Positions 3,730 through 63,011 of a DNA stretch of 64,000 nucleotides are shown piece after piece. Each line of letters starts with the position of its first letter. Position 1 is the first letter of the stretch. The notes below the pieces were generated by a model, which saw nothing but the letters and a program-made list of their open reading frames with translations, had not been told where the DNA came from and did no database searches. The translations under genes and the position numbers were made by a program. The DNA is from Candidatus Yanofskybacteria bacterium (GTDB lineage Bacteria > Patescibacteriota > Minisyncoccia > 2-02-FULL-40-12 > IGHO2-01-FULL-4-A): the NCBI GenBank assembly GCA_016185545.1, contig JACPNJ010000005.1, forward strand, positions 4,549 to 68,548, read 5' to 3'.

Positions 3730-4998
3730 TCAGTTCACGTAAATATTAGCAAACAAATCTAAACTCTTGATGGCTTGAAATTTCTTTATGTAATTTAAGG
3801 TTTCTTGACGTAAAACTTTTGTTGATGCGGGTAATCGAAACTGGCCGCTGATCCATGTCAGGCCGAATTTGTTGATAGAACTTGCAACTCTGCTTGGACC
3901 ACCATTATAAGTTGCGGCTAGCATTTCCTCGGTGATACCCAGTGACTGTACGATATCACGGCGCGTGATCTTGCCGGTTATGTCTTTTTTGTGGCTGTCA
4001 AAAAACAAAACCATTGCTTTGATTGCATTTACGTGGTTGGCCATGCCGGCATTATAATTTTTAATCAGTTTTGCCTGCGGATATTTTGCAACCATCAAAT
4101 CGTATGTTGATTTAATAAATTGAGCCATACCGGAAGCACCGGCCGGAGAACCGGTATAACGGTAAGCATAATTTTGATTAGCGCCAATAACTGTCAGTAC
4201 GCGTTCTGACAATTCTTTGCCGCCATCAGTGGCCGCATTAAAACTATCGGGATCTATATGTTCAATTAAAATTATATTACTGATAAAATCCCTGCTGATA
4301 TTTGCGGTAATAGGAATACGCGTATTTGAAAGCGAGGTTACTACTTTTTCGTCTAATTCAGTAAAGGCTTGATTAATACTCTTTGCCAAATACTTTTTGC
4401 CGGCCTCTATTATTTCTGGCGATTGAATCCTGCCTGAATATGGAGCGTAAATTATATCAGTATATTGTTTGGCTGATTTTTCCGGCAGTCCTATGAGATG
4501 CGAACTCAGGAGCGGGTATTTATTGGCAACTACCACAAATTCAGGGTGCTCTGGAAACTCGTAGTCCGTATTAAAACTGTTCCACCAGTTCACTTTCACG
4601 CCAATCCCCTGCACGTCCTGCACGACATCGCATGTCGTGCAGGGTAAAATGGTGATAATTCCGGTTTTTTTGAAGTTTTTAATCTCATCCTCGCTGACCC
4701 ATACCATATGTTCAAAAATTTCCCCTGTATTTTTATTAAGAATAGCCAGTGTAATTTGTTTGCGGAGCGCATCATATTTTAGTGGCGGTGATTTTTTTAA
4801 TAATTCAATTCCCTCTCGGATATTTTGCGTAGTTATCAATTGAGTTGCTTGGTCCGCGTAAAATATCATGTCAGATTCATTTACAACCGTCAATTCCCTG
4901 GCATAATCAAGATTAATTAAAGTTAAAAATCCGGTTGATATTACCGTAAGCAATAAAAAATAAAAATATCCTGATTTTAACCAGGTTTGCGGTTTCAA
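3730..4998 (-). CDS. membrane-anchored SLT-domain lytic transglycosylase-like protein
   Basis: N-terminal TM helix; GSPAGASGMAQFI resembles the SLT GLMQ motif. Confidence 0.6.
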   Translation of the reverse strand: MKPQTWLKSGYFYFLLLTVISTGFLTLINLDYARELTVVNESDMIFYADQATQLITTQNIREGIELLKKSPPLKYDALRKQITLAILNKNTGEIFEHMVWVSEDEIKNFKKTGIITILPCTTCDVVQDVQGIGVKVNWWNSFNTDYEFPEHPEFVVVANKYPLLSSHLIGLPEKSAKQYTDIIYAPYSGRIQSPEIIEAGKKYLAKSINQAFTELDEKVVTSLSNTRIPITANISRDFISNIILIEHIDPDSFNAATDGGKELSERVLTVIGANQNYAYRYTGSPAGASGMAQFIKSTYDLMVAKYPQAKLIKNYNAGMANHVNAIKAMVLFFDSHKKDITGKITRRDIVQSLGITEEMLAATYNGGPSRVASSINKFGLTWISGQFRLPASTKVLRQETLNYIKKFQAIKSLDLFANIYVN

Positions 4999-14417: not shown

Positions 14418-15419
14418 CTACTGCGTGGTCAACCCGGAGTCTTTTTCTATTGCCAGTTGTGGTAAATTTAGTTTTAGCATTCGCTCGTTGTAATCCTTAA
14501 TTATTCGCATCTCTATTGAATGCGGATGAAATTCCAGCTGTTCATCAGTAAAAATCACACGCCCGCCAGTCTGATGACTCACGGGGTTGTGCGCGATGCG
14601 CCGCGATTGATAATGGCCAAACCATTTTTCCAAAACTCTAGCAATGCCGAAGTTATCAAGTAACCATTCAGTCAACTTCACCAAGAATTGAGAAGTTGAG
14701 CTTCTCAAACGAAGCTCAACTTCTTTATTTTCAATATCCCACTCGCAAACATAATCAAGCACCCAACCATTGGCTTTCTTGAAGTCATCTATTAATTCAC
14801 TATCACTGACAAAAATTGGCACGAGATTGGCATAGGTTTGGGCATTATAAATACTTTTGTGGGGAATACTCAGCGATTTATCTGTTATGTAATGGTTGAG
14901 GCAGATTTTATTAGGCGCAATCTTGTCATTGCCACGGCGACGCACGCGCAGGAGTGATAATAAGCCGGTTATGAAAAAGCGTGTCAGCCAGATTCGGCCA
15001 TGTTTAATAATGACTAAAACGTCCAGGTCGCTTAGCTCATCCATATTTCTCATGGCTAATGACCCTGAAGCAAAAACCACTTTTACATATGGTACTAAGT
15101 GTAGCCACCAAACGGCACGCTTGGTAATCTGCCATTTTCGTTGAGCGATTTTTTCACGCTTTATTCGCAATGGCACCAGATATTCCCGGTCAAATAGAAA
15201 ATAGTAACCCTCGCGTAAGCCAATGACTCCCTCCAAAATTAATTGGTCAAGTTCTCGAGAGACAGTGGACAGTGGACAGTAGACAGTGGACAGTAGGCTA
15301 ATGCCTAGATGTTGAAAATTTATCAAGTAATTAAAAACTTCTTCCATTTTCAACGGGAAATCAAAAACATCGTAATAGGTAAGGGTTGCCAGGATATTTT
15401 TTTTAAATTCGGACACCAT
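14418..15419 (-). CDS. nucleotidyltransferase-domain protein (hypothetical)
   Basis: GSLAMRNMDELSDLDVLV Pol-beta-type NTase motif; contains two in-frame repeat insertions. Confidence 0.5.
   Translation of the reverse strand: MVSEFKKNILATLTYYDVFDFPLKMEEVFNYLINFQHLGISLLSTVYCPLSTVSRELDQLILEGVIGLREGYYFLFDREYLVPLRIKREKIAQRKWQITKRAVWWLHLVPYVKVVFASGSLAMRNMDELSDLDVLVIIKHGRIWLTRFFITGLLSLLRVRRRGNDKIAPNKICLNHYITDKSLSIPHKSIYNAQTYANLVPIFVSDSELIDDFKKANGWVLDYVCEWDIENKEVELRLRSSTSQFLVKLTEWLLDNFGIARVLEKWFGHYQSRRIAHNPVSHQTGGRVIFTDEQLEFHPHSIEMRIIKDYNERMLKLNLPQLAIEKDSGLTTQ
14691..14724. repeat. In-frame palindromic element agaagttgagcttctcaaacgaagctcaacttct
   Basis: Near-perfect 14-bp arms; same family as the elements in murC and trpS; encodes EVELRLRSSTS. 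Confidence 0.8.
15261..15295. repeat. Heptamer tandem array (gacagtg/gacagta)x5 inside the NTase coding sequence
   Basis: Five head-to-tail 7-mers encoding STVYCPLSTV. Confidence 0.9.
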
Positions 15420-24915: not shown

Positions 24916-24957
24916 AGGCACGGAAACGATTTACATATGTAAATCGTTTCCGTGCCT
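24916..24957. promoter_or_regulatory. 42-bp perfect palindrome in the divergent promoter region upstream of uvrC
   Basis: aggcacggaaacgatttacat|atgtaaatcgtttccgtgcct; ends 8 bp before the uvrC ATG. Confidence 0.5.
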
Positions 24958-24965
24958 CGTACGGG

Positions 24966-26393
24966 ATGAAAATTAATCCCAAAATCGTGCCCAAAACACC
25001 GGGTGTTTATTTTTTCCGTGATAAACATGGGCAAATTTTGTATATCGGCAAAGCGGTTAACTTAAAAAATCGCTTGGCCAGCTATTTTAAATCTCAACTT
25101 GGCGGTCGGACCGCTAAGTTGATGGAAAAAGCCATAAGAGTTAATTGGCAAAAGACTGATTCCGAAATAGAAGCCCTGATTTTAGAATCACAACTTATTA
25201 AAAAATATCGTCCGCCGTTCAACGTAATGCTGCGTGATGATAAACAGTATTTTTTTGTTGGATTCACGAAAGATGTGTTTCCACGCATCTTCTTGACTCA
25301 TCAACCGTTTGATTGTCGACGCTTAAAAAATTCAAAATCTAAATTTCAAAATTCAAATAATCTAAAACCTGATTTCGTTGGTCCATTCACTGATGGAAAT
25401 GCGCTAAGGATAACCTTGCGACTTCTGCGCCGCATATTTCCCTATTGCACTTGCAAGCAAAAGCATAATAATTATTGTTTGAATTATCATATTGGGAAAT
25501 GTTTGGGGTTTTGCTGTCTGAAAGATCAGAATCTAGAATCTAGAAAGCAGAATCTAGAATCATATAAGAAAAATGCCAGGGCGATAAAAGATATATTGAC
25601 AGGCAAGCGAAGCAGTTTGATAAAAAGATTTAAAAAAGAAATGCTGGAACTTGGCAAAAAACATGATTTTGAAAAAGCGATTGAATTACGCGATAAAATT
25701 ACGAAACTGAAAAAAGTTTTTGAGAATGCCCGCATCATTCTAGATTCCAAAAACAGGTCTACAGACAAAGATGCTTTAAAAAACTTAGCCAAAATTATCG
25801 GCACAAAATATATCCCAAAGCGAATAGAGGGTTATGATATTTCTAATATCCAAGGCGAATTTGCTACTGGTGCAATGGTCGTTTTTGTTAACGGCCGGCC
25901 TGATAAAAGCCAATACCGTAGGTTTAAAATTCGAAATTCGAATATCAAAATTCGAAACAAATCCAAAATTCAAAATTCAAAATCACAAAAGGTTTCGGAT
26001 TTCAGATTTCATGCTTCGGATTTCCGCTCTGTCGGAGATACGGCAATGTTGCGTGAAATATTAACTCGTCGGTTTAATCATCCGGAATGGCCACGGCCGG
26101 ATTTAATAATCGTAGACGGCGGTAGGGCACAACTAAATGTTGCAGCTAAAATAATCTATGGACATCGCAAGACCATAGGTCTTGCGATGACGGAAAATCT
26201 GATTCCGATTGTTGCTTTGACCAAAAACGATAAACACCGAGGAAGCCACATTTATGTTGGCGCTAAAAAAGCGGCTGTACCGTTGAAACAGTTACCATCG
26301 GCGGTTAGAAATCTGATTCTTCAAGTTGATTCAGAGACCCACAGGTTCGCGATTAGTTATTACAAAAAATTGCACAGAAAATTGGGCAAATAA
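24966..26393 (+). CDS. uvrC: excinuclease ABC subunit C, short form lacking the C-terminal (HhH)2
   Basis: GIY-YIG (GVYFFRDKHGQILYIGKAVNLKNR), Cys cluster, UVR domain, RIEGYDISNIQG/IIVDGGRAQL endonuclease domain; ends at 475 aa. Confidence 0.85.
   Translation: MKINPKIVPKTPGVYFFRDKHGQILYIGKAVNLKNRLASYFKSQLGGRTAKLMEKAIRVNWQKTDSEIEALILESQLIKKYRPPFNVMLRDDKQYFFVGFTKDVFPRIFLTHQPFDCRRLKNSKSKFQNSNNLKPDFVGPFTDGNALRITLRLLRRIFPYCTCKQKHNNYCLNYHIGKCLGFCCLKDQNLESRKQNLESYKKNARAIKDILTGKRSSLIKRFKKEMLELGKKHDFEKAIELRDKITKLKKVFENARIILDSKNRSTDKDALKNLAKIIGTKYIPKRIEGYDISNIQGEFATGAMVVFVNGRPDKSQYRRFKIRNSNIKIRNKSKIQNSKSQKVSDFRFHASDFRSVGDTAMLREILTRRFNHPEWPRPDLIIVDGGRAQLNVAAKIIYGHRKTIGLAMTENLIPIVALTKNDKHRGSHIYVGAKKAAVPLKQLPSAVRNLILQVDSETHRFAISYYKKLHRKLGK
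25528..25562. repeat. Heptamer array (agaatct-like x5) inside uvrC
   Basis: agaatct agaatct agaaagc agaatct agaatca; encodes QNLESRKQNLES. Confidence 0.8.
25919..26035. repeat. MITE-like aattcga/ttcggatt element inserted in frame in uvrC
   Basis: Same family as 11921-12045; encodes RNSNIKIRNKSKIQNSKSQKVSDFRFHASDFRS, which is absent from E. coli UvrC at this position. Confidence 0.5.
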
Positions 26394-32726: not shown

Positions 32727-32895
32727 TTACGCGTTTGGCCCAAGTTCGAGGCAGATATGAGGAGCGAACCGAAGCGTACTAGAAGTACGTTGAGGGAGCA
32801 CCGGAATATCTAACGAGGAAATTGGGCAAACCCGAAGGGCTTTGAGCCACGTTGAGCCCACAAGGTTTGGGACTCCGTGGCGAAAAGCGTGTAAG
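32727..32895 (+). promoter_or_regulatory. structured leader motif, copy 1 (5' leader of trpS)
   Basis: About 165 nt conserved with an inverted copy at 53740-53905, including a compensatory stem (cgtac-tagaa-gtacg versus cgtag-taaaa-ctacg). Confidence 0.45.
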
Positions 32896-32901
32896 TTATT
32901 T

Positions 32902-33927
32902 ATGGCTGACAGAATTTTTTCAGGAATACGCCCGTCAGGCAAGTTGCATCTGGGTAACTATCTGGGAGCAATAAAAAACTGGATAGAATTACAAAATTCG
33001 CCGGATACTGAACGGGCAATTTTTGCTGTAGTTGATTATCACGGCATTACCACGCCGTTTGACCCCGAAACCTATCGCCAACAAACCCTGGATACAGTTT
33101 TAGATTTTCTTGCCATAGGAATTGACCCCAAAAAATCACTTCTAATTCGCCAGTCCCATATTCCAGAGCATACCGAACTTGCCTGGATTTTTAATACAAT
33201 CACGCCGGTCAGCTGGTTAGAGCGGCTACCGACTTACAAAGAAAAACTGGAAGAAAGCGGCAAAAAATATAATCATGTTGGTCTGCTTGATTATCCTGTT
33301 CTTATGGCAGCTGATATTTTGATTTATAAATCAAATCTTGTGCCAATTGGCGATGATCAAAAAGCCCACATAGACATAACCAATGAAATCGCCAAGAAAT
33401 TTAATCACATGTTCGGCGAAACCTTTGAACCGGTCAAAGCATACAAGGCCGAGGGCGAGCGTATTAAGTCACTTCAGGACTCGGCTAAAAAAATGTCCAA
33501 ATCGGGTGACGAAGGTATTGCTCTCATTGATTTTCCTGATGTAATCCGTGAAAAAATAAAAAAAGCCGTAACTGATTCTGGCCATGAAGTTATATTTGAT
33601 CCCGATAAAAAACCGGCTATTTCTAACTTAATTACAATCTATCATTTGCTAATTAAAGAGGTTCAACCTCGAGAACCCAAAGAGGTTGAACCTCTAAAAT
33701 TTGGCATCAGAGAAATTGAGAAAAAATACAGCGGCAAAACTTATATTGAATTCAAAAATGACCTCGCGGAAATTATAGTGAATTTTCTCAAGCCATTTCA
33801 GGAAAAACGCAAAGAGTTAGAACAAGATATGACTTATGTTGAGGATGTCTTGACAGAAAGTGAAGAAAAAGCTAAACTTATTGCAAGTAGTACTTTGACA
33901 GAAATCAAACAAAAAATGGGGTTATAA
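32902..33927 (+). CDS. trpS: tryptophan--tRNA ligase
   Basis: MADRIFSGIRPSGKLHLGNYLGAI (HIGH-like), KMSKS. The six-frame ORF starts at 32842, but the conserved N-terminus starts at the 32902 ATG. Confidence 0.9.
   Translation: MADRIFSGIRPSGKLHLGNYLGAIKNWIELQNSPDTERAIFAVVDYHGITTPFDPETYRQQTLDTVLDFLAIGIDPKKSLLIRQSHIPEHTELAWIFNTITPVSWLERLPTYKEKLEESGKKYNHVGLLDYPVLMAADILIYKSNLVPIGDDQKAHIDITNEIAKKFNHMFGETFEPVKAYKAEGERIKSLQDSAKKMSKSGDEGIALIDFPDVIREKIKKAVTDSGHEVIFDPDKKPAISNLITIYHLLIKEVQPREPKEVEPLKFGIREIEKKYSGKTYIEFKNDLAEIIVNFLKPFQEKRKELEQDMTYVEDVLTESEEKAKLIASSTLTEIKQKMGL
33657..33695. repeat. In-frame palindromic element agaggttcaacctcgagaacccaaagaggttgaacctct inside trpS
   Basis: Perfect 13-bp arms around a 9-nt centre; encodes KEVQPREPKEVEP; same family as the murC and NTase copies. 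Confidence 0.8.
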
Positions 33928-34054: not shown

Positions 34055-35368
34055 TCACAGCGATCCTTTTATTTCCGAAAGCTTCTCTTCGAGAAGCTTT
34101 TTTGTTTTTGCTTCCACCACTAACCGCAAAACTGGTTCGGTATTTGACGGCCTGAAATTGAACCACCAATCGGGATATTCCACCATTATCCCATCCAGTT
34201 CATCAATTTTCCCGTCTTTATATTTTTCCTTAAGTTTTACGAAAACTTGTTCCTTGTTCCATGTTTCATGTTTTGCGATATTAATTTCTCCGGAATTAAA
34301 CCAAGTTCTAAATTGTTCGGTTAATTCCCGAATATTCTTCCCGCTCTTATTTATTATTTTTAACAGCCGCAACATAACTAGAAATGGCATTTCATTGTAG
34401 TTGGTCTCTTTGAAATAAATATGACCCGATAATTCACCACCGATATCAGCATCGTATTTTACTATATTTTCCCGTATAAAAGTCCTGCCATTTTTGGAAT
34501 GAATCGCCTTAATTCCCCACTCTTTAAATTTTTCCAGCACTCCCCTTGAAAATCTCCAATCGTATATTACTTTGGGTTTTGTCCAAAATTTAATACCGCT
34601 TTGTACCAATAAACCGATAACGTATTCGGAATGTATCGGTTTCGCCGCGGAATCAAAAATATAAATTCTGTCGGCGTCTTCGTCAAAGCCAAAAGATAAA
34701 TCGTATTGCTCGTTTATGCTTATAATGCCGGTTTTTTTAACCAATGACTCAAGCTCGTCGGCGATAGTGGCTTGCGGTTCTATCTTTACTCTTACGGCAT
34801 TTGAATCGCGAACATTCCAGGATGATTTTTTAATTATAAAATCAGTATAGGAGTCAATGAGTTTTTGCCGGTCTTGTTTAATTAACTTACCGCCGTACCT
34901 GGATACTTCAAAGTTTTTATTTTCAGTTAAAATAACTTTAATTTTTTCCAAACCGGAATTCAGCCCCACAATAACACCACCCTCGCCGAAAACTTTGAAT
35001 CCTCCGTACTGCGGGCCGAGATGTGAAGCCGTCAGCATAACTCCGCCATTAACGCCAAGTTTTTTAAGGGCAAAATTAAAAAGCGGGGTTGAGGCCAATC
35101 CTATAAATTCAACATCCGCGCCAACGCTTGTAATGCCCTTGACCAGCGCTTGGGCCAGTTTTTCTGAAAATTGGCGGCTGCCATAGCCTATAAGAAATAT
35201 CCGTTTGTTGATGTATTTGACCAGCGCTTGGCCGAGTTTGAATGCAAAATCCTCATCAAAATCACGGCCGTAAATGCCGCGGATATCATAGGCTCTAAAG
35301 ATTTCCGGATTAAAGTTCACTGCGCAGAAATTGTTGAATAATCTAGCATATGCTAGATTATTCAACAA
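34055..35368 (-). CDS. phosphoglucomutase/phosphomannomutase family protein
   Basis: GFDEDADR Mg-binding, GGELSGHIYF sugar-binding and RPSNTEP phosphate-binding motifs. The start is uncertain: the six-frame TTG start lies in a palindrome, and GTG at 35320 is an alternative. Confidence 0.8.
   Translation of the reverse strand: MLNNLAYARLFNNFCAVNFNPEIFRAYDIRGIYGRDFDEDFAFKLGQALVKYINKRIFLIGYGSRQFSEKLAQALVKGITSVGADVEFIGLASTPLFNFALKKLGVNGGVMLTASHLGPQYGGFKVFGEGGVIVGLNSGLEKIKVILTENKNFEVSRYGGKLIKQDRQKLIDSYTDFIIKKSSWNVRDSNAVRVKIEPQATIADELESLVKKTGIISINEQYDLSFGFDEDADRIYIFDSAAKPIHSEYVIGLLVQSGIKFWTKPKVIYDWRFSRGVLEKFKEWGIKAIHSKNGRTFIRENIVKYDADIGGELSGHIYFKETNYNEMPFLVMLRLLKIINKSGKNIRELTEQFRTWFNSGEINIAKHETWNKEQVFVKLKEKYKDGKIDELDGIMVEYPDWWFNFRPSNTEPVLRLVVEAKTKKLLEEKLSEIKGSL
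35331..35368. promoter_or_regulatory. 38-bp perfect palindrome between the divergent pmm-like and murC genes
   Basis: ttgttgaataatctagcat|atgctagattattcaacaa; overlaps the annotated TTG-start N-terminus of the pmm ORF. Confidence 0.45.
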
Positions 35369-35406
35369 TTTGTTAAATTAGGCTAAATTGTTATATTGGT
35401 AACATT

Positions 35407-36795
35407 ATGATGAAAATACTGGAAAGACTCAGACATATTCATATGATCGGCATTAAGGGCACGGGAATGTCTGCCCTGGCTGTTAATTTTAAGCATATGA
35501 ATATCGAGGTTACCGGTTCTGATTTTGATGAAAAATTTTTTACGGACACTTTGCTTAAAAAGCAGGACATTAAAATCAAAACGCCATTTGCTGCGGCTAA
35601 CATACCAAAAAATACCCAACTGGTCATCACCTCTACCGCTTATGATAACAAAAATCAGGAAATCCAAGAAGTCAGACGCCGTAACTTGCCGCTTTTGACT
35701 TACCCGCAAGCATTGGGCCTTTTAACGCGCGAATTGTCGTCAGTTGCAATCTGCGGCAGCCATGGCAAAACCACTACATCAGGCGCTCTGGGATTCCTGC
35801 TTAGCAAAACTGTTTATAATCCGATTATAAATGTCGGCTCCATTGTGCCGCAATTGCTAAAATATAAAGCGCAAAAAACCAAATTATTGGTTTTTGAAGC
35901 TGATGAATATCAGAATAAGTTTGAGTATTTTTACCCTAAAATTGTCATACTAACCAACATTGATTACGATCACCCTGATTACTTTAAAACCTCGGCGCAT
36001 TATAAATTGACGTTTAAAAATTTTATCAAAAGAATTCCCCAAGACGGGTTATTGATTTATTGCGCCGATGATAAAAACTGCAGAGATGTCGCCCAATCGG
36101 CTCAATGTAAAAAAATAAACTACGGATTCTCTAAATATGCGGATTGTCAAATAAATATTAACCGGATAACTCCGGCTAAAATGACTTTTTCAACCCACTT
36201 AGAAGTTGAACTTCTCAAACTGAGAAGTTCAACTTCTAAGTGGCAATCTAAGCTTATCGGTAATCATAACGCCCTCAATCTTACTGCGGCGGCGCTTTGC
36301 GCCGCCGCTCTAGATGTGCCAACCAAACAAATAAAAAAAGCTATTACGAACTTCGTTGGCACCAAGCGGCGTCTGGAAATAACCCGCCGTCTACGCATCA
36401 ATGGACACCATTGCTTAGTTATTGACGATTTTGGTCATCACCCGACGGAAATTAAAGCCACAATCGCCACGCTTAAAACCGCTCATCCCGATAAAACACT
36501 TTGGACCGTTTTCCAACCGCATACTTTCAGCCGTACCGAAGCTTTATTCAATGATTTCTCCAAATGTTTCGACAAGTCGGATAAAACCATAGTCCTGGAC
36601 ATCTATGCCTCAAAGAGAGAAACTAAAGGAAAAATACATTCAAAAGACTTAGTTAAAAAAATAGGCTCGTCTGGCGTTTTTTACAAACCAAGCATTGAAT
36701 TAGCCGCCAAATTTCTTAAAACTAAAATAAAAACCCCGAGCATTATCTTAACGCTCGGAGCTAGCGAAGTCTGGCGTCTAGCTAAACTTTTATAA
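35407..36795 (+). CDS. murC: UDP-N-acetylmuramate--L-alanine ligase
   Basis: GIKGTGMSALA, ICGSHGKTTT, DEYQNKF. Confidence 0.9.
   Translation: MMKILERLRHIHMIGIKGTGMSALAVNFKHMNIEVTGSDFDEKFFTDTLLKKQDIKIKTPFAAANIPKNTQLVITSTAYDNKNQEIQEVRRRNLPLLTYPQALGLLTRELSSVAICGSHGKTTTSGALGFLLSKTVYNPIINVGSIVPQLLKYKAQKTKLLVFEADEYQNKFEYFYPKIVILTNIDYDHPDYFKTSAHYKLTFKNFIKRIPQDGLLIYCADDKNCRDVAQSAQCKKINYGFSKYADCQININRITPAKMTFSTHLEVELLKLRSSTSKWQSKLIGNHNALNLTAAALCAAALDVPTKQIKKAITNFVGTKRRLEITRRLRINGHHCLVIDDFGHHPTEIKATIATLKTAHPDKTLWTVFQPHTFSRTEALFNDFSKCFDKSDKTIVLDIYASKRETKGKIHSKDLVKKIGSSGVFYKPSIELAAKFLKTKIKTPSIILTLGASEVWRLAKLL
36201..36237. repeat. In-frame palindromic element agaagttgaacttctcaaactgagaagttcaacttct inside murC
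   Basis: Perfect 16-bp arms; encodes LEVELLKLRSSTSK. Confidence 0.85.
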
Positions 36796-37906: not shown

Positions 37907-38494
37907 TTGAAAATATCCGGGGCTATTATGAACTTTGATAACTTATCTAGTGAGGAATTAAAAAAATTACTCACCATGGGTCGAACATCCGGTAAAAGAA
38001 TGGCTTTTGAATTTTGGCTCAAGCACATAGAACTAATCGCTCCCAGGGAAACTGGCATAGGCAAAGACCAGCAGCATTACACGGCAAGATTCTTAACACG
38101 GTTTTCTCTGGTTTCAACCACACATTCAATGTTCCACTTTCCTACTTTCATGAGTTTGGCGCAAATTTATGACGAATTCGTGCAGGATATTGAAAACCAG
38201 TATTCACCGGAACCCATGGAAATAGCCGGTTACCAAACTTTACTGCTTGGCGGGTTTTATCTGAAAGCCGCAAGTAAACATTACAACATGGAAGACATAC
38301 GAAAAATGGGCGAATTATTTTTCACCCGCGGAGCAATCGGCAAAAGAAAATCCGTAATCAAAAAAATGGCTCATAATTTTAGCCGATGGCAAAATACGCT
38401 TTGTTATCTTGAATGGTATTTAAGAAATGAAAGATTAGTCATTCAAAAAGCAGAAAAACCCGACGAGCCCCTCATCAAAATCATCCCCCGCTAG
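37907..38494 (+). CDS. hypothetical protein adjacent to the DGR
   Basis: ORF only; its stop overlaps the RT stop by 4 bp (convergent). Confidence 0.35.
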   Translation: MKISGAIMNFDNLSSEELKKLLTMGRTSGKRMAFEFWLKHIELIAPRETGIGKDQQHYTARFLTRFSLVSTTHSMFHFPTFMSLAQIYDEFVQDIENQYSPEPMEIAGYQTLLLGGFYLKAASKHYNMEDIRKMGELFFTRGAIGKRKSVIKKMAHNFSRWQNTLCYLEWYLRNERLVIQKAEKPDEPLIKIIPR

Positions 38495-39501
38495 GGGGAT
38501 TTATATTTTAAAATTTCGGCTTTTAGTTCGTTGGAATTTCCGTGGCTCAAAAGGCCTAGATACGATTCTATTGCCGCAATGTCAGGATTTGATTTAAGTT
38601 TTTTTAACATTCTTCTCTTTGTTGTTGTTCTCAATATTCTGTGGTCTGGAAAATTCACCCACCCCAGAAAATCAACACCCGAATTAATGGTTTTTATGAA
38701 AATTTTACCGGGATGTAATTCTAGTTTAAGATTTTCGGATAAAAAAATCTGAATAGGGTTGATTATACCTTTAAGCCAGGCTTTGTAGGGTGAAATTATT
38801 ACAAAGTCGTCTGAATATCTGACATAGTATTTAGCCTTGAGTTTGTGCTTAACAAACTGGTCAAACTTGTTCATATAGATATTTACGAAAAGCTGTGATG
38901 TTAAGTTACCAAGCGGCAAGCCAACGCCTATTTTCTTGGACGAGAAACTTTTAATGATTTGGTTAAGAAGCCACAAAATATCCTTGTCCGGTATGTTCTC
39001 AACCAAAATTTTTTTCAGTACTTCATGGTCAATATTTTTAAAGAATTTCTTGATATCACACTTTAATATCCAACAAGTGCGAGTATTGTTTTTATTGGCT
39101 TTGTGGGCAAAACTCCTGAAACGGTTTATTGCTTTATGAGTTCCTTTGCCGACTCTGCACGAGAATGAATCGGGAATAAACACTCGGTCAAGGAACGGAC
39201 AAAGTTGCCTACAGACGGCATGGTGAATCAAACGGTCCCTTACTGGCGATTTGTGTATTTGCCTTGGTTTGGGGTCATTGATACGAAAAGATTGATATTT
39301 GCCGTGCTTATAAGTTTTGCCCATCAATTCATGGTGAAGTTCGATAATATTGTCCATCAAATTCATACTGAATTTTTGGACATCTTTCTTTTTGCGCTTT
39401 CCTTTCAAAAATTCTTGCCAAGAATGAAGCAGATTGTCTATACTTACAACATCGTAAAAACAAACACAAAAACCACCTTTATGCCCCCCCCCCAACAACA
39501 A
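38491..39501 (-). CDS. diversity-generating retroelement reverse transcriptase
   Basis: N-terminal IDNLLHSWQEFLKGKRKKKDV, SFSCRVGKGTHKAINR, DGR-specific GLPLGNLTSQLFVNIYMN, YVRYSDDFVI (YxDD). The start is ambiguous: TTG in the given frame, or an ATG if the G-tract is 9 long. Confidence 0.85.
   Translation of the reverse strand: MLLGGGHKGGFCVCFYDVVSIDNLLHSWQEFLKGKRKKKDVQKFSMNLMDNIIELHHELMGKTYKHGKYQSFRINDPKPRQIHKSPVRDRLIHHAVCRQLCPFLDRVFIPDSFSCRVGKGTHKAINRFRSFAHKANKNNTRTCWILKCDIKKFFKNIDHEVLKKILVENIPDKDILWLLNQIIKSFSSKKIGVGLPLGNLTSQLFVNIYMNKFDQFVKHKLKAKYYVRYSDDFVIISPYKAWLKGIINPIQIFLSENLKLELHPGKIFIKTINSGVDFLGWVNFPDHRILRTTTKRRMLKKLKSNPDIAAIESYLGLLSHGNSNELKAEILKYKSP
39484..39493. repeat. C10 (+ strand) / G10 homopolymer at the overlapping 5' ends of RT and avd
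   Basis: Read directly from the sequence. A 9-nt tract would give avd an ATG start at 39481 and RT an ATG start at 39517. Confidence 0.9.
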
Positions 39502-39502
39502 T

Positions 39503-39850
39503 TTGTCGATTATTCATGGTTTTATTGAATTATACAAAGTCTGGCAAAAAATATTTCCCCACTTTCCGACCACCTCCAGACACACGCTCGGATACAGAAT
39601 AGATAATCTTCTCGTGGAAATAGCTGAATTATTGTTTCTGGCGCAATTTGCAACCGGCAATCTTAAGTTATCTCTGGTTGAAAAAACATCACAGAAACTA
39701 GATACGATAAAATTCCTGTTAAGGTTGGCTTGGGAAGTTGAATCTATGGAAGAAAAGAAATATATAATTTTGTCTGAATATCTGCAAAACATTGGGAAAC
39801 AACTTGGCGGTTGGATAAAATATATAAGAAAAGAAAACTCTCCGCGTTGA
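39503..39850 (+). CDS. avd: DGR accessory variability determinant (Avd), four-helix-bundle type
   Basis: C-terminal GKQLGGWIKYIRKEN resembles bAvd ..GRILGSWIARVNRK; IKFLLRLAWEVE resembles bAvd LRFWLRFLA; 115 aa. It lies on the strand opposite to RT, TR and the target gene. Confidence 0.7.
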   Translation: MSIIHGFIELYKVWQKIFPHFPTTSRHTLGYRIDNLLVEIAELLFLAQFATGNLKLSLVEKTSQKLDTIKFLLRLAWEVESMEEKKYIILSEYLQNIGKQLGGWIKYIRKENSPR

Positions 39851-39866
39851 GCAGAGAGAAACAGAG

Positions 39867-40007
39867 ATAGTTTCGAGGCAGAACGAACACGAAGCGATAG
39901 TCAGAATCAAAGACGTTGTCGGGATTGCCGTAATACGCGTTCAACCAAGGTTCGCCATCGTTACGATTCACATCGAACACGTTCAGGTTGCCGTCGGAGT
40001 CAGTAAT
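39867..40007 (-). repeat. DGR template repeat (TR), template strand minus
   Basis: Aligns to 40261-40401 at an offset of 394 bp. All 16-17 mismatches are T on the + strand, which is A on the TR coding strand; there are no other mismatches in 133 bp. Confidence 0.85.
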
Positions 40008-40197
40008 GTATGGCATACCGTCTATACCACCACCCCTTGAGTTTTCTCAGGGTTGAATCTAATTTGATATCTAAATCATACCCTAGTACACCACACCAAG
40101 TATGTCTGTTTTTTTTTGAGGCCGCTCAAAGCCTTCTAATTTTGACCGTGAGCATGTCGCCGTATCTATAATATAACTTATTTCCGAAATAAAAAAG

Positions 40198-40230
40198 GGT
40201 CAGTCAATGATAAAAATATTGACCGACCCA
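40198..40230 (-). terminator. hairpin plus U-run downstream of the VR/target gene
   Basis: Minus strand: gggtcggtcaat..attgactgaccc followed by ttttttatttcgg. Confidence 0.5.
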
Positions 40231-40260
40231 GAAACCAAGCAACAAGAATCTGAGAGATCC

Positions 40261-40401
40261 TTACTTGCGAGGCAGAACGAACACGAAGCGATAGACAGAA
40301 ACAAAGACGCTGTCGGGACAGCCGCAAAACGCGCCCAACCAAGGTTCGCCATCGAAACGATTCACAACGAACACGCGCAGGCTGCCGTCGGAGTCAGTAA
40401 G
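40261..40401 (-). repeat. DGR variable repeat (VR) at the 3' end of the target gene
   Basis: See the TR entry. The TR-encoded peptide has Asn (AAY) where the VR peptide has S/R/F/G/C/K, and TR Asp/Tyr codons also vary. Confidence 0.85.
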
Positions 40402-40914
40402 TGGCTCCATGGCAACTACGAGACACTCTCCATCGGGCTGATCCTTGTACTGATCGCGCAGTGCCGGACCAACTTCGTTTGGACAGAGTTGACCGCCGAC
40501 CTCAACTATCCTGGCACAGATGTCATCATACCGGGTACTCTTCTTGAAACCGAGTTCAGCAACCGACATGACACACAAATCCACTTCAATCTCTGCCTGC
40601 GAGATGGAGATTTTGTGGAGAATCTGCTGTGCCCAATCACCGATTCGGGTAGTACCTCCACGCTTCAGGGCACTCGCGTAAGCCTTCGGGGTCTTGTGAA
40701 GGCCCAGTCTGATGGTCCCCCAAACCTTCAGCACTGGCAAAAGCCCAAGAAACTTCTGGAAGACATCTCTGACAGGCAAAGTATTTGACTTGATTGCCCG
40801 AGCCAGGTCTGATAGATACCCGCTGTGCAGTGTGTTCATCTCCTCACCGGAGAGCTTCTGCTGATCCAGCAGATTAAGTGTCTGCTGGGCATGACCAAAA
40901 GTTGCATTGCTCAT
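40261..40914 (-). CDS. DGR target protein (217 aa) with C-terminal variable region
   Basis: AGGAGG RBS; GC content higher than its surroundings; C-terminus ..DGEPWLGAFCGCPDSVFVSVYRFVFVLPRK is VR-encoded; no signal peptide. Confidence 0.8.
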   Translation of the reverse strand: MSNATFGHAQQTLNLLDQQKLSGEEMNTLHSGYLSDLARAIKSNTLPVRDVFQKFLGLLPVLKVWGTIRLGLHKTPKAYASALKRGGTTRIGDWAQQILHKISISQAEIEVDLCVMSVAELGFKKSTRYDDICARIVEVGGQLCPNEVGPALRDQYKDQPDGECLVVAMEPLTDSDGSLRVFVVNRFDGEPWLGAFCGCPDSVFVSVYRFVFVLPRK

Positions 40915-48677: not shown

Positions 48678-50093
48678 ATGAATCTTATGAAAAAACATAT
48701 ACTGTTGATTATAATTATTGTTGCCAGTTTGGCAACGCATTTTTTGTTTTTCGGACAGCCGCGTGAAACGGTTTTTGATGAAGTACATTTCGGTAAATTC
48801 ATTTCGGGATATTTTACTCATGAGTATTTTTTTGACATTCATCCGCCGCTTGGCAAATTGATAATCTCCGGCATGGGTTATGCTGCTGATTTTGAACCGG
48901 GTTTTAATTTCGCCGAAATCGGCCAAAAATTCCCTGATAACGCATATATGTGGTTGCGGCTCTTGCCGACAATCGCCGGCACGCTTCTGCCAATTGTTAT
49001 TTATTTTTTAATTCTTGAATTAGGCATGTCGCGCCTAGCGGCATTCGCCGGCGGAATGCTAGTTATCCTTGAAAATGCTCTTTTGGTCCAATCACGTATT
49101 ATTTTACTTGACTCATTTTTGCTTTTATTCGGCTTTTTAGCTTTTCTTTTTTATCTTCTTCACCGTCATATTGCACGACATCGCATGTCGTGCAATTGGG
49201 TATATTTGCTTTTAAGCGGGATTTTTGGCGCATTGGCGGTTTCAGTCAAATGGACTGGCGCCACATTCTTAGCAATTATCGTAATCTTATACTTCATTGA
49301 TTTGCTTAAATCACAACAAAAACTCAAGGTCATGGTACGAGATTTAGGTTTTCTTGTTATTTTGCCGCTTATCATCTATTTTTCCGTTTTCGCTTTGCAT
49401 TTTTCTCTTTTATCAAAATCCGGTCCCGGTGATGCCTTTATGAGTCCCGAGTTCCGCAAAACCCTTGTTGGCAGTGCTGACAGCGCCAATGCTGATTTGA
49501 GACCACTCAATGTTTTCCAGAAATTCAACGAGTTAAATCTTCAAATGTATAAATCAAATGCCACGTTAACAGCCGGCCATCCCTATTCCAGCAAATGGTA
49601 CACCTGGCCATTTATGATTAGGCCGATATATTATTGGAACGATTCTGCAAGCGAGCAGCAGTCACGCATATATTTTTTAGGTAATCCGGTTATCTGGTGG
49701 ATATCAACAGCGGCTATATTTTATTTGCTCTTAAACGCCGCGTATTCAATATTTCGACTTGCGATTTTGAAAGTATTAAAAAAATTCCATGATTTTTCGA
49801 ATTACAAGATTAAGACATTATCGGTCTTGCTAGTCGGAGTATATCTGTTTAATCTTTTGCCATTCATCAGTATCAAACGAGCCATGTTTTTATATCACTA
49901 TATGGTTGGTTTGATTTTTGCCATAATCACTTTGGTTTATCTGATAGATCAAACTAAAAATAAAAAAAGGATCTTTATGATCCTTTTGGCTGCAAGTTTT
50001 GCCGCATTTATTTTTTTCGCCCCTCTTTCTTACGGCCTACCGCTTACTGAAAGAGCTTACAATTTCCGTGTCTGGTTACCAACCTGGTTATAA
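48678..50093 (+). CDS. GT39/PMT-like dolichyl-phosphate-mannose protein mannosyltransferase family membrane protein
   Basis: TVFDEVHFGKF..HPPLGK loop-1 motif; polytopic. Confidence 0.7.
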   Translation: MNLMKKHILLIIIIVASLATHFLFFGQPRETVFDEVHFGKFISGYFTHEYFFDIHPPLGKLIISGMGYAADFEPGFNFAEIGQKFPDNAYMWLRLLPTIAGTLLPIVIYFLILELGMSRLAAFAGGMLVILENALLVQSRIILLDSFLLLFGFLAFLFYLLHRHIARHRMSCNWVYLLLSGIFGALAVSVKWTGATFLAIIVILYFIDLLKSQQKLKVMVRDLGFLVILPLIIYFSVFALHFSLLSKSGPGDAFMSPEFRKTLVGSADSANADLRPLNVFQKFNELNLQMYKSNATLTAGHPYSSKWYTWPFMIRPIYYWNDSASEQQSRIYFLGNPVIWWISTAAIFYLLLNAAYSIFRLAILKVLKKFHDFSNYKIKTLSVLLVGVYLFNLLPFISIKRAMFLYHYMVGLIFAIITLVYLIDQTKNKKRIFMILLAASFAAFIFFAPLSYGLPLTERAYNFRVWLPTWL

Positions 50094-62385: not shown

Positions 62386-62955
62386 ATGACCAAACCAATA
62401 AATAAAATAATCGGTTTTGATTTAGACGGCGTTATCCTTAATCACACCCCCAACAAGCTGAACTTAGCAAAAAGTTTCGGTTGGAAATTAAGTCCAGAAC
62501 AAACCCACTCAGAAATAATCAGAACCATTATGCCGAAGCATGCGCTGGATCAACTGAAACTTACCCTATATGATGATCCGGAAGTATCATTAAAATCACC
62601 GGTAACAAGGGGGGCTAGAAGCACATTGTCGGAAATAAAAAATAAATACTCCTACTTTTTGATATCCAGGCGGAAAAAACCGGAAATAGCTATTAGAATC
62701 CTGAAAATTAAAAAACTGTGGCCCGAGTTTTTTAATGAGAACAATACATTTTTTGTTTCCAAACCAAAAGATAAAAATAAAATCGGCAAGAAACTAGGCA
62801 TCACTCACTATGTTGATGACGAACTAAGGGTTCTTGAAAAGCTTACTGACATTAAAAATAAAATACTTTTTGACCCATATAATTCATTTCCTTATGCTAC
62901 TAATTTTATAAAAGTAAAATCATGGAAAGAACTTTTTGGTTTAATCAACAGTTAG
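62386..62955 (+). CDS. HAD-superfamily hydrolase (5'-nucleotidase-like)
   Basis: Motif I IGFDLDGVI. Confidence 0.5.
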   Translation: MTKPINKIIGFDLDGVILNHTPNKLNLAKSFGWKLSPEQTHSEIIRTIMPKHALDQLKLTLYDDPEVSLKSPVTRGARSTLSEIKNKYSYFLISRRKKPEIAIRILKIKKLWPEFFNENNTFFVSKPKDKNKIGKKLGITHYVDDELRVLEKLTDIKNKILFDPYNSFPYATNFIKVKSWKELFGLINS

Positions 62956-63000
62956 ACTTAAAATAAAACATCCCGATACCGGGATGTTTTATTTTAAGTC
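62955..63000. terminator. 46-bp palindromic bidirectional terminator between convergent genes
   Basis: gacttaaaataaaacatcccg-atac-cgggatgttttattttaagtc. Confidence 0.6.
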
Positions 63001-63011
63001 TAGTATGCTGT

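What the first reader, a model, noticed from the sequence alone, without database searches (positions are those of the whole stretch)
36201..36237. Family of short perfect palindromic elements inserted in frame inside essential genes (murC, trpS, and a nucleotidyltransferase gene)
Three copies of a ~34-39-bp palindrome with arms AGA(A/G)GTT(G/C)A(A/G)C(T/C)TCT occur at 36201-36237 in murC, 33657-33695 in trpS, and 14691-14724 in the NTase ORF. Each keeps the reading frame and adds about 12-13 residues (EVEL..RSSTS / EVQPREPKEVEP) at positions that look like insertions relative to orthologues. This resembles the in-frame Rickettsia palindromic elements and is a mobile palindromic DNA parasite not expected a priori in this kind of genome.
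Basis: seen in the sequence. Interest (0 to 1): 0.7.

Follow-up and report, generated by a model that had tools for sequence, protein, structure and literature searches.

The report
In-frame REP-type hairpin repeats in genes
Three essential or conserved genes of this tiny-genome (CPR) bacterium carry in-frame copies of a short DNA hairpin repeat. In other bacteria the same repeat flanks a REP-associated tyrosine transposase gene, so it is most likely a small mobile REP-type element tolerated in protein loops.

Summary
All three palindromes sit at the stated coordinates; the murC copy is actually a 49-bp perfect palindrome, 36195-36243. They are far beyond chance and are read in the one frame that is stop-free in all three. 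The trpS and murC copies are insertions: 68 of 70 close TrpS orthologues and most MurC orthologues lack them. In AlphaFold models both map to low-confidence loops.

The window comes from a Candidatus Yanofskybacteria MAG. The same 15-nt arm, AGAAGTT(G/C)AACTTCT, forms hairpins at more than 180 loci in Chloroflexota and Patescibacteria. They are intergenic in Chloroflexota and lie in frame inside housekeeping genes in Patescibacteria.

Only three Y1 (HUH) transposase genes occur in the 1.4 Mb I collected. All three are tightly flanked by these hairpins, and their best match is the NCBIfam model "REP-associated tyrosine transposase". This is a REPtron-like arrangement.

The best reading is therefore a new REP/REPIN-type family. 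It behaves like the Rickettsia palindromic elements at the protein level but is not one of them. No transposase lies in the window, and mobility in this genome is inferred, not shown. Orthologous copies keep perfect pairing through compensated, amino-acid-changing substitutions, which is unexplained. Other palindrome families occupy the same MurC codon position in relatives.

The parts
36195..36243 (.). murC copy. It is a 49-bp perfect palindrome: CCACTT + arm AGAAGTTGAACTTCT (36201-36215) + CAAACTG + arm AGAAGTTCAACTTCT (36223-36237) + AAGTGG. It encodes (HL)EVELLKLRSSTS(KW).
   Evidence: (dG -24.4 kcal/mol, z -10.8). The insert is MurC residues 266-277, a loop between strands 258-265 and 276-281 with local pLDDT 75-77 in a model of mean pLDDT 92.6. 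It is absent from most orthologues.
33657..33695 (.). trpS copy of the AGAGG/CCTCT subtype: AGAGGTTCAACCTC-GAGAACCCAAA-GAGGTTGAACCTCT. It encodes (K)EVQPREPKEVEP(L).
   Evidence: It is present only in the window protein and P0122 among 70 close orthologues. It is a 14-residue gap relative to solved TrpS 6dfu. In the AlphaFold model residues 253-266 have pLDDT below 50 and form a coil between helices 238-250 and 269-275.
14691..14724 (.). Copy in the NTase-like ORF. Read on the - strand: AGAAGTTGAGCTTC-GTTTGA-GAAGCTCAACTTCT, encoding (K)EVELRLRSSTS. Its loop, CAAAC on the + strand, matches the murC loop CAAACTG apart from a 3-nt deletion.
   Evidence: The orthologues in L190 and L191 carry related palindromes at the same site.
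35407..36795 (+). Host gene murC (UDP-N-acetylmuramate--L-alanine ligase).
32842..33927 (+). Host gene trpS (tryptophan--tRNA ligase). The database protein P0121 starts 20 codons downstream of the first possible start.
14418..15419 (-). Host gene: a conserved Patescibacteria protein, annotated in relatives as containing a nucleotidyltransferase domain.
   Evidence: (no Pfam hit).
26161..26191 (.). A separate palindrome family, in frame in uvrC: GACATCGCAAGACC-ATA-GGTCTTGCGATGAC. In other Yanofskybacteria the same family occupies the MurC insertion site.
4617..4643 (.). A third palindrome family, TGCACGACAT(CGC/GCG)ATGTCGTGCA, in frame in ORF 3730-4998 (-).
49170..49196 (.). Second copy of the third family, in frame in the PMT-family glycosyltransferase gene 48678-50093 (+).

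Best explanation
The three palindromes are copies of a REP/REPIN-type repeat. The unit is a 15-nt, itself nearly palindromic sequence, AGAAGTT(G/C)AACTTCT. Two units in inverted orientation form a 14-23-bp hairpin in single-stranded DNA.

Such hairpins are the substrates of RAYT-type HUH/Y1 tyrosine transposases, which cut and rejoin single-stranded DNA and spread the repeats without target-site duplication. In Chloroflexota the copies pile up between genes. In Patescibacteria (CPR) genomes the copies I found sit almost entirely inside long ORFs, and the ones that survive keep a stop-free frame and land in tolerant surface loops. They add 11-17 residues.

The copies in this window are old. They were inherited with the host genes through speciation and are not necessarily mobile today.

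Shown: the family, its in-frame state, absence from orthologues, loop location, and the REPtron arrangement elsewhere. Inferred: mobilisation by the RAYT-like enzyme, filtering of insertions by selection, and the cause of arm co-evolution.
For: 1. Family. The same arms occur in three unrelated genes here, and the murC and NTase copies also share the loop CAAAC(TG).

2. Spread. 117 of these are in Chloroflexota MAGs and 3 in one Patescibacteria MAG. It also hit 60 metagenome stretches.

3. Location. In Chloroflexota the copies are mostly intergenic (median spanning ORF 241 nt) with genome-specific flanks and tandem arrays. In low-GC Patescibacteria contigs they form 58-88-bp perfect palindromes inside PolA, LeuRS, PrmC, CysRS, a GrpE-like gene and RecG, all read as (T)EVELLS...DRSSTSV.

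4. Transposase link. tblastn with one Y1 transposase against all 1.42 Mb held found only three genes. Each is tightly flanked by the hairpins: L130 has 3 upstream and 2 downstream; L166 has 2 and 2; L143 has one 12 bp past the stop and one in frame inside the gene. Hairpin density near these genes is roughly 17 times the background of 0.22 per kb. In 13-kb Patescibacteria loci the only two copies are the ones at this gene.

5. Transposase identity. The proteins hit Pfam Y1_Tnp (35.6, 38.5 and 72.5 bits). Their best NCBIfam model is NF047646, REP-associated tyrosine transposase (77.6, 75.1 and 39.5 bits), against 28 bits for IS200. The best PDB match of their profile is E. coli TnpA-REP 4er8. 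The YHI..R, NHxH and YI..NP motifs are invariant. The gene sits at one conserved locus in 10 assemblies. NCBI names its hosts as Patescibacteria and as Anaerolineales/Ardenticatenaceae.

6. No target-site duplications flank the copies (read).

7. Insertion and loop status of the window copies.
Against: - No Y1 transposase or any other transposase lies in the 64-kb window. The rest of the source genome could not be reached.
- NF047646 scores fall just below NCBI's cutoff of 80 bits.
- The repeats lack the GTAG/CGTC foot typical of described REPs.
- Only three REPtron-like loci were seen, and two of them are in contigs already rich in the repeat.
- The window copies are shorter than the Patescibacteria REPtron copies and lack their inner GTCAG..CTGAC stem.
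- Persistence of perfect pairing across orthologues of 52-71% protein identity is not predicted by a purely selfish, decaying insertion.
Confidence: 0.7

Rival explanations
1. The hairpins are functional nucleic-acid structures kept by selection inside the genes, not just tolerated insertions. They could be mRNA structure affecting stability or translation, or a binding site for a dimeric protein. Their origin as repeats would then be secondary (domesticated REPINs).
For: Orthologous copies keep full pairing through changes on both sides of a pair. There are 8 compensated pairs against 4 one-sided changes across the murC, NTase and trpS orthologue sets. The compensated changes alter the encoded residues (E/G/V and S/P/T in MurC). 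So the DNA or RNA structure, not the peptide, is what is conserved. The core arm is also identical across two phyla.
Against: - Most orthologues lack any insert and clearly function without it.
- Host genes and positions are unrelated.
- A different palindrome family fills the same MurC site in relatives, which suggests a permissive site rather than a specific function.
- One compensated variant (A10G/T6C) is a widespread subfamily, so re-insertion or hairpin-templated correction can mimic selection.
- No T-run follows the stems, so they are not intrinsic terminators.
- No Rfam family matches.
Confidence: 0.12
2. They are miniature inverted-repeat elements (two terminal inverted repeats and almost nothing else) moved by a DDE-type or other unidentified transposase. 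The link to Y1 transposase genes would then be coincidental.
For: Formally, the structure is two 15-bp inverted repeats with a 3-11-nt spacer. Only three Y1 loci support the RAYT link.
Against: - No target-site duplications at any of about 200 copies inspected.
- No gene family other than the Y1 transposase recurs next to the copies.
- All three Y1 genes found are immediately flanked by copies.
Confidence: 0.08
3. The palindromes arose locally at each site by template-switch or hairpin-primed repair at variable loops, without any transposition. The shared sequences would be convergent.
For: The sites are indel-prone loops. Different inserts occur at the same codon position in relatives. The window as a whole has 18 perfect stems of 11 bp or more, against 0.6 in shuffles.
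Against: Identical 15-nt arms, and for murC and the NTase ORF the same loop, occur in unrelated genes. The same arms occur at more than 180 loci of two phyla. That cannot be convergence.
Confidence: 0.05
4. Assembly or amplification artefact (chimeric inverted joins).
For: One hit contig, L012, is an inverted-duplicate contig. Logan unitigs L001-L003 begin inside a nearby 44-bp palindrome.
Against: The identical MurC protein with the insert was assembled independently from three sequencing runs. Orthologous copies exist in other studies' assemblies. The reading frames are intact.
Confidence: 0.01

Closest known systems
REP / REPIN sequences with their RAYT (TnpA-REP) transposase, i.e. REPtrons of Proteobacteria (Nunvar 2010; Bertels & Rainey 2011; Ton-Hoang 2012; reviewed in PMC3733652 and PMC6006769; PDB 4er8)
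   Same: - Short 20-40-bp palindromic units, often paired in inverted orientation to form a longer hairpin.
- Tens or more dispersed copies per genome, including tandem clusters.
- No target-site duplication.
- A single-locus Y1/HUH transposase gene flanked by the repeats.
- Subfamilies that differ by complementary stem changes.
- Occasional intragenic, in-frame copies, including different REPs at the same site of one gene (recB in Xanthomonas; PMC3733652).
   Different: - No GTAG or CGTC foot.
- The stem is longer (14-15 bp, up to 23-44 bp with flanks), and each arm is itself a palindrome.
- The same core is conserved across Chloroflexota and Patescibacteria rather than being specific to a species or genus.
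- In Patescibacteria nearly all copies seen are intragenic.
- The transposases score just under NCBI's RAYT cutoff.
- Activity is untested.
Rickettsia palindromic elements (RPE; Ogata et al. 2000, as summarised in PMC10969869)
   Same: Palindromic repeats inserted in frame in many unrelated housekeeping genes of a reduced genome. They add a peptide segment at positions compatible with the protein fold.
   Different: - RPEs are about 100-150 bp and encode 30-50 residues; these are 34-49 bp (58-88 bp in other Patescibacteria) and encode 11-29 residues.
- RPEs have no known dedicated transposase and carry a CGTC tag (PMC3733652); here a RAYT-like gene is associated.
- The host lineage is unrelated.
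Subterminal hairpins of IS200/IS605 elements (TnpA Y1; e.g. IS608, ISDra2)
   Same: ssDNA hairpins recognised by a Y1 HUH enzyme. There is no target duplication, and precise excision is possible.
   Different: Here the transposase gene is not multi-copy and the hairpins are dispersed alone. NCBIfam scores favour the RAYT model over IS200 (75-78 against 28 bits).
Very small dispersed repeats of cyanobacteria (Elhai et al. 2008; from my own knowledge, not checked here)
   Same: Mobile-looking palindromic repeats of only a few tens of bases that can nest and occasionally lie in genes.
   Different: Different sequences and host. No transposase link was established for those.

Membership tests
REP/REPIN-RAYT system | Short (about 20-40 bp) palindromic unit able to form a stem-loop; doublets in inverted orientation (REPIN) | tested here: met
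   Stems are 14-23 bp and loops 3-11 nt. ssDNA folding z-scores are -6.9 to -10.8. Each 15-nt arm is itself palindromic and the two arms are inverted.
REP/REPIN-RAYT system | Many dispersed copies within a genome | tested here: inconclusive
   The window holds 3 copies in 64 kb and no more even at 3 mismatches. The rest of the source genome was unreachable. The feature is met for the family elsewhere: roughly 30 loci in MAG BC3.16 and roughly 20 in S014_14, despite a truncated scan.
REP/REPIN-RAYT system | Predominantly extragenic location | tested here: not met
   All 3 window copies, and 9 of 10 distinct Patescibacteria copies, lie inside ORFs. The feature is met in Chloroflexota. Intragenic REPs are a known minority elsewhere (PMC3733652).
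REP/REPIN-RAYT system | Conserved unpaired 5' tetranucleotide foot (GTAG, or CGTC in the second superfamily) | tested here: not met
   Flanks of about 200 copies show no GTAG or CGTC. Only a loose ..TTT/AAA.. extension of the palindrome is seen. Atypical REP classes without GT[AG]G are described (PMC6006769).
REP/REPIN-RAYT system | Single-locus RAYT (Y1/HUH) gene flanked by the same repeats (REPtron) | tested here: met
   The arrangement is seen in L130, L166 and L143/L194-L203. The proteins hit PF01797 and, as best model, NF047646; their profile's best PDB match is 4er8. It is not met within the window itself, which has no such gene.
REP/REPIN-RAYT system | The RAYT binds and cleaves or rejoins its REP as ssDNA | not testable with these tools
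   This needs biochemistry with the L130 or L194 protein and hairpin oligonucleotides.
Rickettsia palindromic elements (RPE) | Sequence families of about 100-150 bp found in Rickettsia and relatives | tested here: not met
   Size is 34-49 bp here. The host is a Candidatus Yanofskybacteria MAG. No sequence comparison to RPE consensus sequences was possible.
Rickettsia palindromic elements (RPE) | In-frame insertion in unrelated protein-coding genes, encoding a conserved peptide | tested here: met
   The peptides are EVEL(L/R)(K/L)LRSSTS and EVQPREPKEVEP in murC, the NTase-like ORF and trpS. The same peptide core occurs in PolA, LeuRS, CysRS, RecG and others.
Rickettsia palindromic elements (RPE) | Inserts map to positions compatible with the protein fold (surface loops) | tested here: met
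   In MurC the insert is a coil between two strands with pLDDT 75-77 against a mean of 92.6. In TrpS it is a coil between two helices with pLDDT below 50. Solvent exposure itself was not computed.
MITE (TIR element of a DDE transposon) | Target-site duplication flanking the element | tested here: not met
   No direct repeats flank the copies. Where the flanks resemble each other they are inverted, not direct.
MITE (TIR element of a DDE transposon) | A parent IS with the same terminal repeats encoding a DDE transposase | tested here: inconclusive
   An all-vs-all comparison of 1916 ORFs near the copies found no recurrent neighbour family. Whole genomes were not searched.

The most novel reading that the evidence does not exclude
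The hairpins are not merely tolerated junk. In CPR bacteria and Chloroflexota, a REPIN-RAYT pair with an almost invariant 15-nt core has been kept since before, or exchanged across, the split of the two phyla. Its intragenic copies would be maintained at the nucleic-acid level by selection or by RAYT- or hairpin-templated correction. That would make them a class of structured elements embedded in the coding sequence of essential genes, with a fixed set of 'landing loops' that different palindrome families use in turn.
Probability: 0.18. Interest if true: 0.75.

Novelty: new member of a known kind. Interest (0 to 1): 0.5.

Why it matters
REP/RAYT systems have been studied almost only in Proteobacteria, where the repeats are extragenic and specific to a species.

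Here a family with one nearly invariant core spans Chloroflexota and the ultra-small Patescibacteria. In the latter it sits in frame inside genes such as murC, trpS, polA, leuS, cysS and recG, and even inside its own transposase gene.

If confirmed, this gives three things:
- An explanation for some of the odd lineage-specific inserts seen in CPR proteins.
- A marker for gene flow or shared ancestry between CPR and Chloroflexota.
- A natural experiment on how essential enzymes absorb 11-29 extra residues, and on what keeps a hairpin perfectly paired inside coding sequence.

For annotation, such inserts should not be mistaken for frameshifts, inteins or assembly errors.

Tried and rejected
- Viral contigs. 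Four pattern scans (7-nt-loop degenerate form, general AGAAG form, AGAGG subtype, family 2) all returned 0 hits, so there is no sign of a phage vehicle.
- Cis-linked gene. Clustering 1916 ORFs around the Chloroflexota copies gave no recurrent neighbour. This argues against an operator or regulon reading. The transposase link only appeared when an ORF hosting a copy turned out to be a Y1 transposase.
- Mobiliser in the window. Pfam on about 50 ORFs found only housekeeping genes and a DGR. A link to the DGR was considered and dropped: the copies elsewhere have no DGR nearby, and the TR/VR pair is unrelated in sequence.
- Intrinsic terminators. No T-run follows any of the three stems.
- Known RNA families. 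Rfam finds only two tRNAs.
- Integron attC sites. The arm centres GTTCAAC and GTTGAAC fit RYYYAAC and GTTRRRY by eye. However, the elements are far too short, are not arranged in cassette arrays, and no integrase was seen. I rejected this reading.
- Extending beyond the window. The 339-kb NCBI contig is not retrievable; look-ups returned only 1.5-2.3-kb Logan unitigs or nothing.
- A single-sequence PDB search with the RAYT-like protein found nothing. A 7-sequence profile was needed.
- Literature. The arm sequence returned only three unrelated papers (arthropod, Drosophila and human-protein studies). No paper combines 'palindromic element' with Patescibacteria in the library searched.
- One paper search failed on syntax.
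Full report
**What is in the sequence**

- In murC (35407-36795, +) the core AGAAGTTGAACTTCT-CAAACTG-AGAAGTTCAACTTCT lies at 36201-36237. It is embedded in a perfect 49-bp palindrome, 36195-36243, with a 23-bp stem and a 3-nt loop.
- In trpS (32842-33927, +) the copy is AGAGGTTCAACCTC-GAGAACCCAAA-GAGGTTGAACCTCT (33657-33695).
- In the conserved ORF 14418-15419 (-) it is AGAAGTTGAGCTTC-TCAAAC-GAAGCTCAACTTCT (14691-14724).

Each 15-nt arm is itself a palindrome around a central G or C, so the two arms are inverted copies of one unit.

The arm pattern occurs 11 times (both strands counted) against 0.05 expected. Relaxing to three mismatches adds no further copies. As single-stranded DNA the three fold with z-scores of -10.8, -6.9 and -7.2.

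All three are read in frame 2, which is the only stop-free frame of the murC copy on either strand. The murC and NTase copies also share their loop (CAAACTG against CAAAC), which points to common descent rather than convergence.

**Context**

MurC is 100% identical to a protein of a Candidatus Yanofskybacteria MAG (Patescibacteria/CPR) on a 339-kb contig. The window has 41% G+C, and ORFs of about 100 aa or more cover at least 83% of it.

Pfam annotation of about 50 ORFs gives ordinary housekeeping genes and no transposase, integrase or HUH protein.

The window is unusually rich in palindromes. It has 18 perfect stems of 11 bp or more, against 0.6 +/- 0.8 in dinucleotide shuffles.

**Are they insertions?**

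- TrpS. Of 70 close orthologues, only the window protein and its 85%-identical relative carry the segment; 68 lack it. It is also a gap relative to solved TrpS structures.
- MurC. The site is empty in most of 30 orthologues. DNA of an empty site (L188) confirms this.
- NTase-like protein. The site is a variable loop, so the element represents replacement plus a small net gain.

AlphaFold models place the MurC insert (residues 266-277) in the turn between two beta strands, at local pLDDT 75-77 in a model of mean 92.6. They place the TrpS insert (residues 253-266) in a coil between two helices at pLDDT below 50.

**Orthologous copies and site re-use**

Relatives with 67-71% identical MurC carry the element at the same codon position with different but perfectly complementary arms:
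- L004: AGGAGTTGAGCTTCT / AGAAGCTCAACTCCT.
- L005: AGTAGTTGAGCTACT / AGTAGCTCAACTACT, with a 52-nt loop.

The NTase orthologue in L191 has AGTGGTTGAGCCTCT-TAAA-AGAGGCTCAACCACT.

Across the three genes I count 8 pairs changed on both sides and still paired, against 4 one-sided changes. The compensated changes alter the encoded residues, so what is kept is the nucleic-acid pairing, not the peptide.

One of the variants (A10G/T6C) is a common subfamily. Re-insertion of another family member therefore cannot be separated from in-situ compensation with these data.

Other MurC orthologues hold an unrelated palindrome at the same position:
- L006: GGACATCGCAAGTCC-TTAGA-GGACTTGCGATGTCC.
- L007: a degraded version of the same.

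This second family also occurs in the window, in frame in uvrC at 26161-26191. The closest MurC relative (P0002, 76%) has no such insert, so the site has a history of gain, loss and replacement.

**The family outside the window**

117 are in about 30 Chloroflexota MAGs (Anaerolineae, Ardenticatenales, Caldilineae, Promineifilaceae) and 3 are in one Patescibacteria MAG.

In Chloroflexota the form is AGAAGTTCAACTTCT-N3-4-AGAAGTTGAACTTCT. It is mostly intergenic (median spanning stop-to-stop ORF 241 nt), with genome-specific flanks and some tandem arrays.

A metagenome scan gave 60 more stretches.
- The high-GC ones are the Chloroflexota type.
- The low-GC ones (27-34% G+C) are perfect palindromes in which a 46-49-nt two-arm core extends by 6-21 bp on each side (58-88 bp in all). 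The layout is ..GAGAC or CCAAAAAC-arm-GTCAG..CTGAC-arm-GTCTC or GTTTTTGG.
- These lie inside long ORFs for PolA, LeuRS, PrmC, CysRS, a GrpE-like protein and RecG, always read as (T)EVELLS..DRSSTSV.

Viral contigs gave nothing.

**The link to a transposase**

One of the low-GC host ORFs (L143) is itself a Y1 transposase (PF01797). I used it, with its insert removed, as a tblastn query against all 192 loci held (1.42 Mb). It found just three genes, in L143, L130 and L166. All three are tightly flanked by the hairpins:

| Locus | Upstream of gene | Downstream of gene |
|---|---|---|
| L130 | three hairpins, the last overlapping the ORF's first in-frame bases (about 10 nt before the likely ATG) | two hairpins starting 17 nt after the stop |
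| L166 | two hairpins | two hairpins, with compensated arm variants |
| L143 | none within about 250 bp; one hairpin lies in frame inside the gene | one hairpin 12 bp after the stop |

Hairpin density around these genes is roughly 17 times the 0.22 per kb background of loci that were themselves selected for containing the element.

The Patescibacteria gene sits at one conserved chromosomal locus in ten assemblies. In 13 kb around it, the only two copies of the element are the ones at the gene.

The proteins' best NCBIfam model is NF047646, 'REP-associated tyrosine transposase' (77.6, 75.1 and 39.5 bits; cutoff 80). IS200 reaches only 28 bits. A profile of them matches E. coli TnpA-REP (4er8) best among solved structures. 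The YHI..R, NHxH (HUH) and YI..NP motifs are invariant. NCBI records name the hosts as Patescibacteria and as Anaerolineales/Ardenticatenaceae.

This is the REPtron arrangement described for REP/RAYT systems (PMC6006769, PMC3733652).

**Most likely mechanism**

The elements are REP/REPIN-type hairpins dispersed by a RAYT-like HUH enzyme acting on single-stranded DNA. This is consistent with the absence of target-site duplications.

In Patescibacteria nearly every copy seen lies inside a gene. Presumably only in-frame copies in tolerant loops survive, though that filtering is inferred rather than shown.

Mobilisation by the RAYT-like protein is inferred, as is the state of the source genome outside the window. 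The window copies look old, because they are shared with orthologues of 52-85% identity. They are also shorter than the REPtron copies. For example, the murC loop CAAACTG can be derived from the Patescibacteria inner stem GTCAGTTGAAACTGAC by small deletions (my reading).

**Comparison with known systems**

In kind, this is a REP/REPIN family. It differs from described ones in four ways:
- It lacks the GTAG/CGTC foot.
- Its arms are self-palindromic.
- Its core is shared across two phyla.
- Its copies are intragenic in CPR.

Intragenic REPs, and even different REPs at one site of one gene, have been reported in Proteobacteria (PMC3733652).

It behaves like the Rickettsia palindromic elements at the protein level. 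RPEs, however, are about 150 bp and have no dedicated transposase (PMC10969869, PMC3733652), so it is not a member of that family.

I found no paper mentioning the arm sequence in a relevant context, or palindromic elements in Patescibacteria, in the library searched.

**Verdict**

Novelty: a new member of a known kind. Three points are of real interest: cross-phylum conservation of the core, in-frame residence in essential CPR genes, and compensated evolution inside coding sequence.

The main gaps are the unseen remainder of the source genome, the small number of REPtron loci, and the lack of any activity data.

Noticed in passing
window 38491-40914: A complete diversity-generating retroelement lies next to the murC-ychF block. 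It has an RT at 38491-39501 (-) (PF00078, LGNLTSQ motif), bAvd at 39503-39850 (+), TR at 39868-40006 and VR at 40262-40400 (139 nt, 88% identical). 16 of the 17 TR/VR differences are at T on the + strand, i.e. at A on the - strand. The VR is the 3' end of ORF 40261-40914 (-), which has no Pfam hit.
   Followed up: partly
window 26161-26191; L006 2976-3010; L007 2592-2624: A second in-frame palindrome family, GACATCGCAAGNCC..GGNCTTGCGATGTC. It is in uvrC in the window. In other Yanofskybacteria it sits at exactly the MurC codon position that holds the AGAAG element here. It gave no hits in viral contigs.
   Followed up: partly
window 4617-4643 and 49170-49196: A third palindrome family, TGCACGACAT(CGC/GCG)ATGTCGTGCA (27 bp, 12-bp stem). 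It is in frame in two unrelated genes: ORF 3730-4998 (-) and the PMT-family glycosyltransferase 48678-50093 (+). Whether these are insertions relative to orthologues was not checked.
   Followed up: no
window 24916-24957, 35328-35371, 62953-63002: Three long perfect palindromes (42, 44 and 50 bp) lie between genes. Two are in divergent promoter regions (aminotransferase/uvrC and pgm/murC) and one is between convergent genes. They are unrelated in sequence to the AGAAG family. Logan unitigs carrying murC begin inside the 44-bp one.
   Followed up: no
window 25094-25122: A 29-bp palindrome (13 matched pairs around a 1-nt centre, with one internal mismatch), TCAACTTGGCGGTCGGACCGCTAAGTTGA, lies in the GIY-YIG domain of uvrC. 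It sits in a stretch that aligns without a gap to solved UvrC (1yd6), so this one is not an insertion.
   Followed up: partly
L004 (TrpS), L005 (MurC loop), P0004 (MurC), five TrpS orthologues: Relatives carry other short in-frame inserts. These are TPSTGSGQG in L004 TrpS, SGSGQSNNAYLSNLYQ inside the L005 MurC element, GPPKFSYGKPRRVN in P0004 MurC, and SIKGQVL at the window's trpS insertion site in five orthologues. This suggests further insert families and recurrent use of the same loops.
   Followed up: no
L143 3913-3958; L194 10180-10225: The Patescibacteria RAYT-like gene carries a copy of its own associated hairpin in frame inside its coding sequence, within a ~45-residue stretch that is a gap in the L130 homologue (about 15 of those residues are hairpin-encoded). 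The same protein is found in at least 10 assemblies, next to an NTP_transf_2/HepT pair.
   Followed up: partly
L012 (JAHJJO010000063.1): This contig is an inverted duplicate of itself: the same 1257-aa LeuRS ORF appears on both strands and the element hits lie at mirror positions. It is probably an assembly artefact, so I counted it as one copy.
   Followed up: partly
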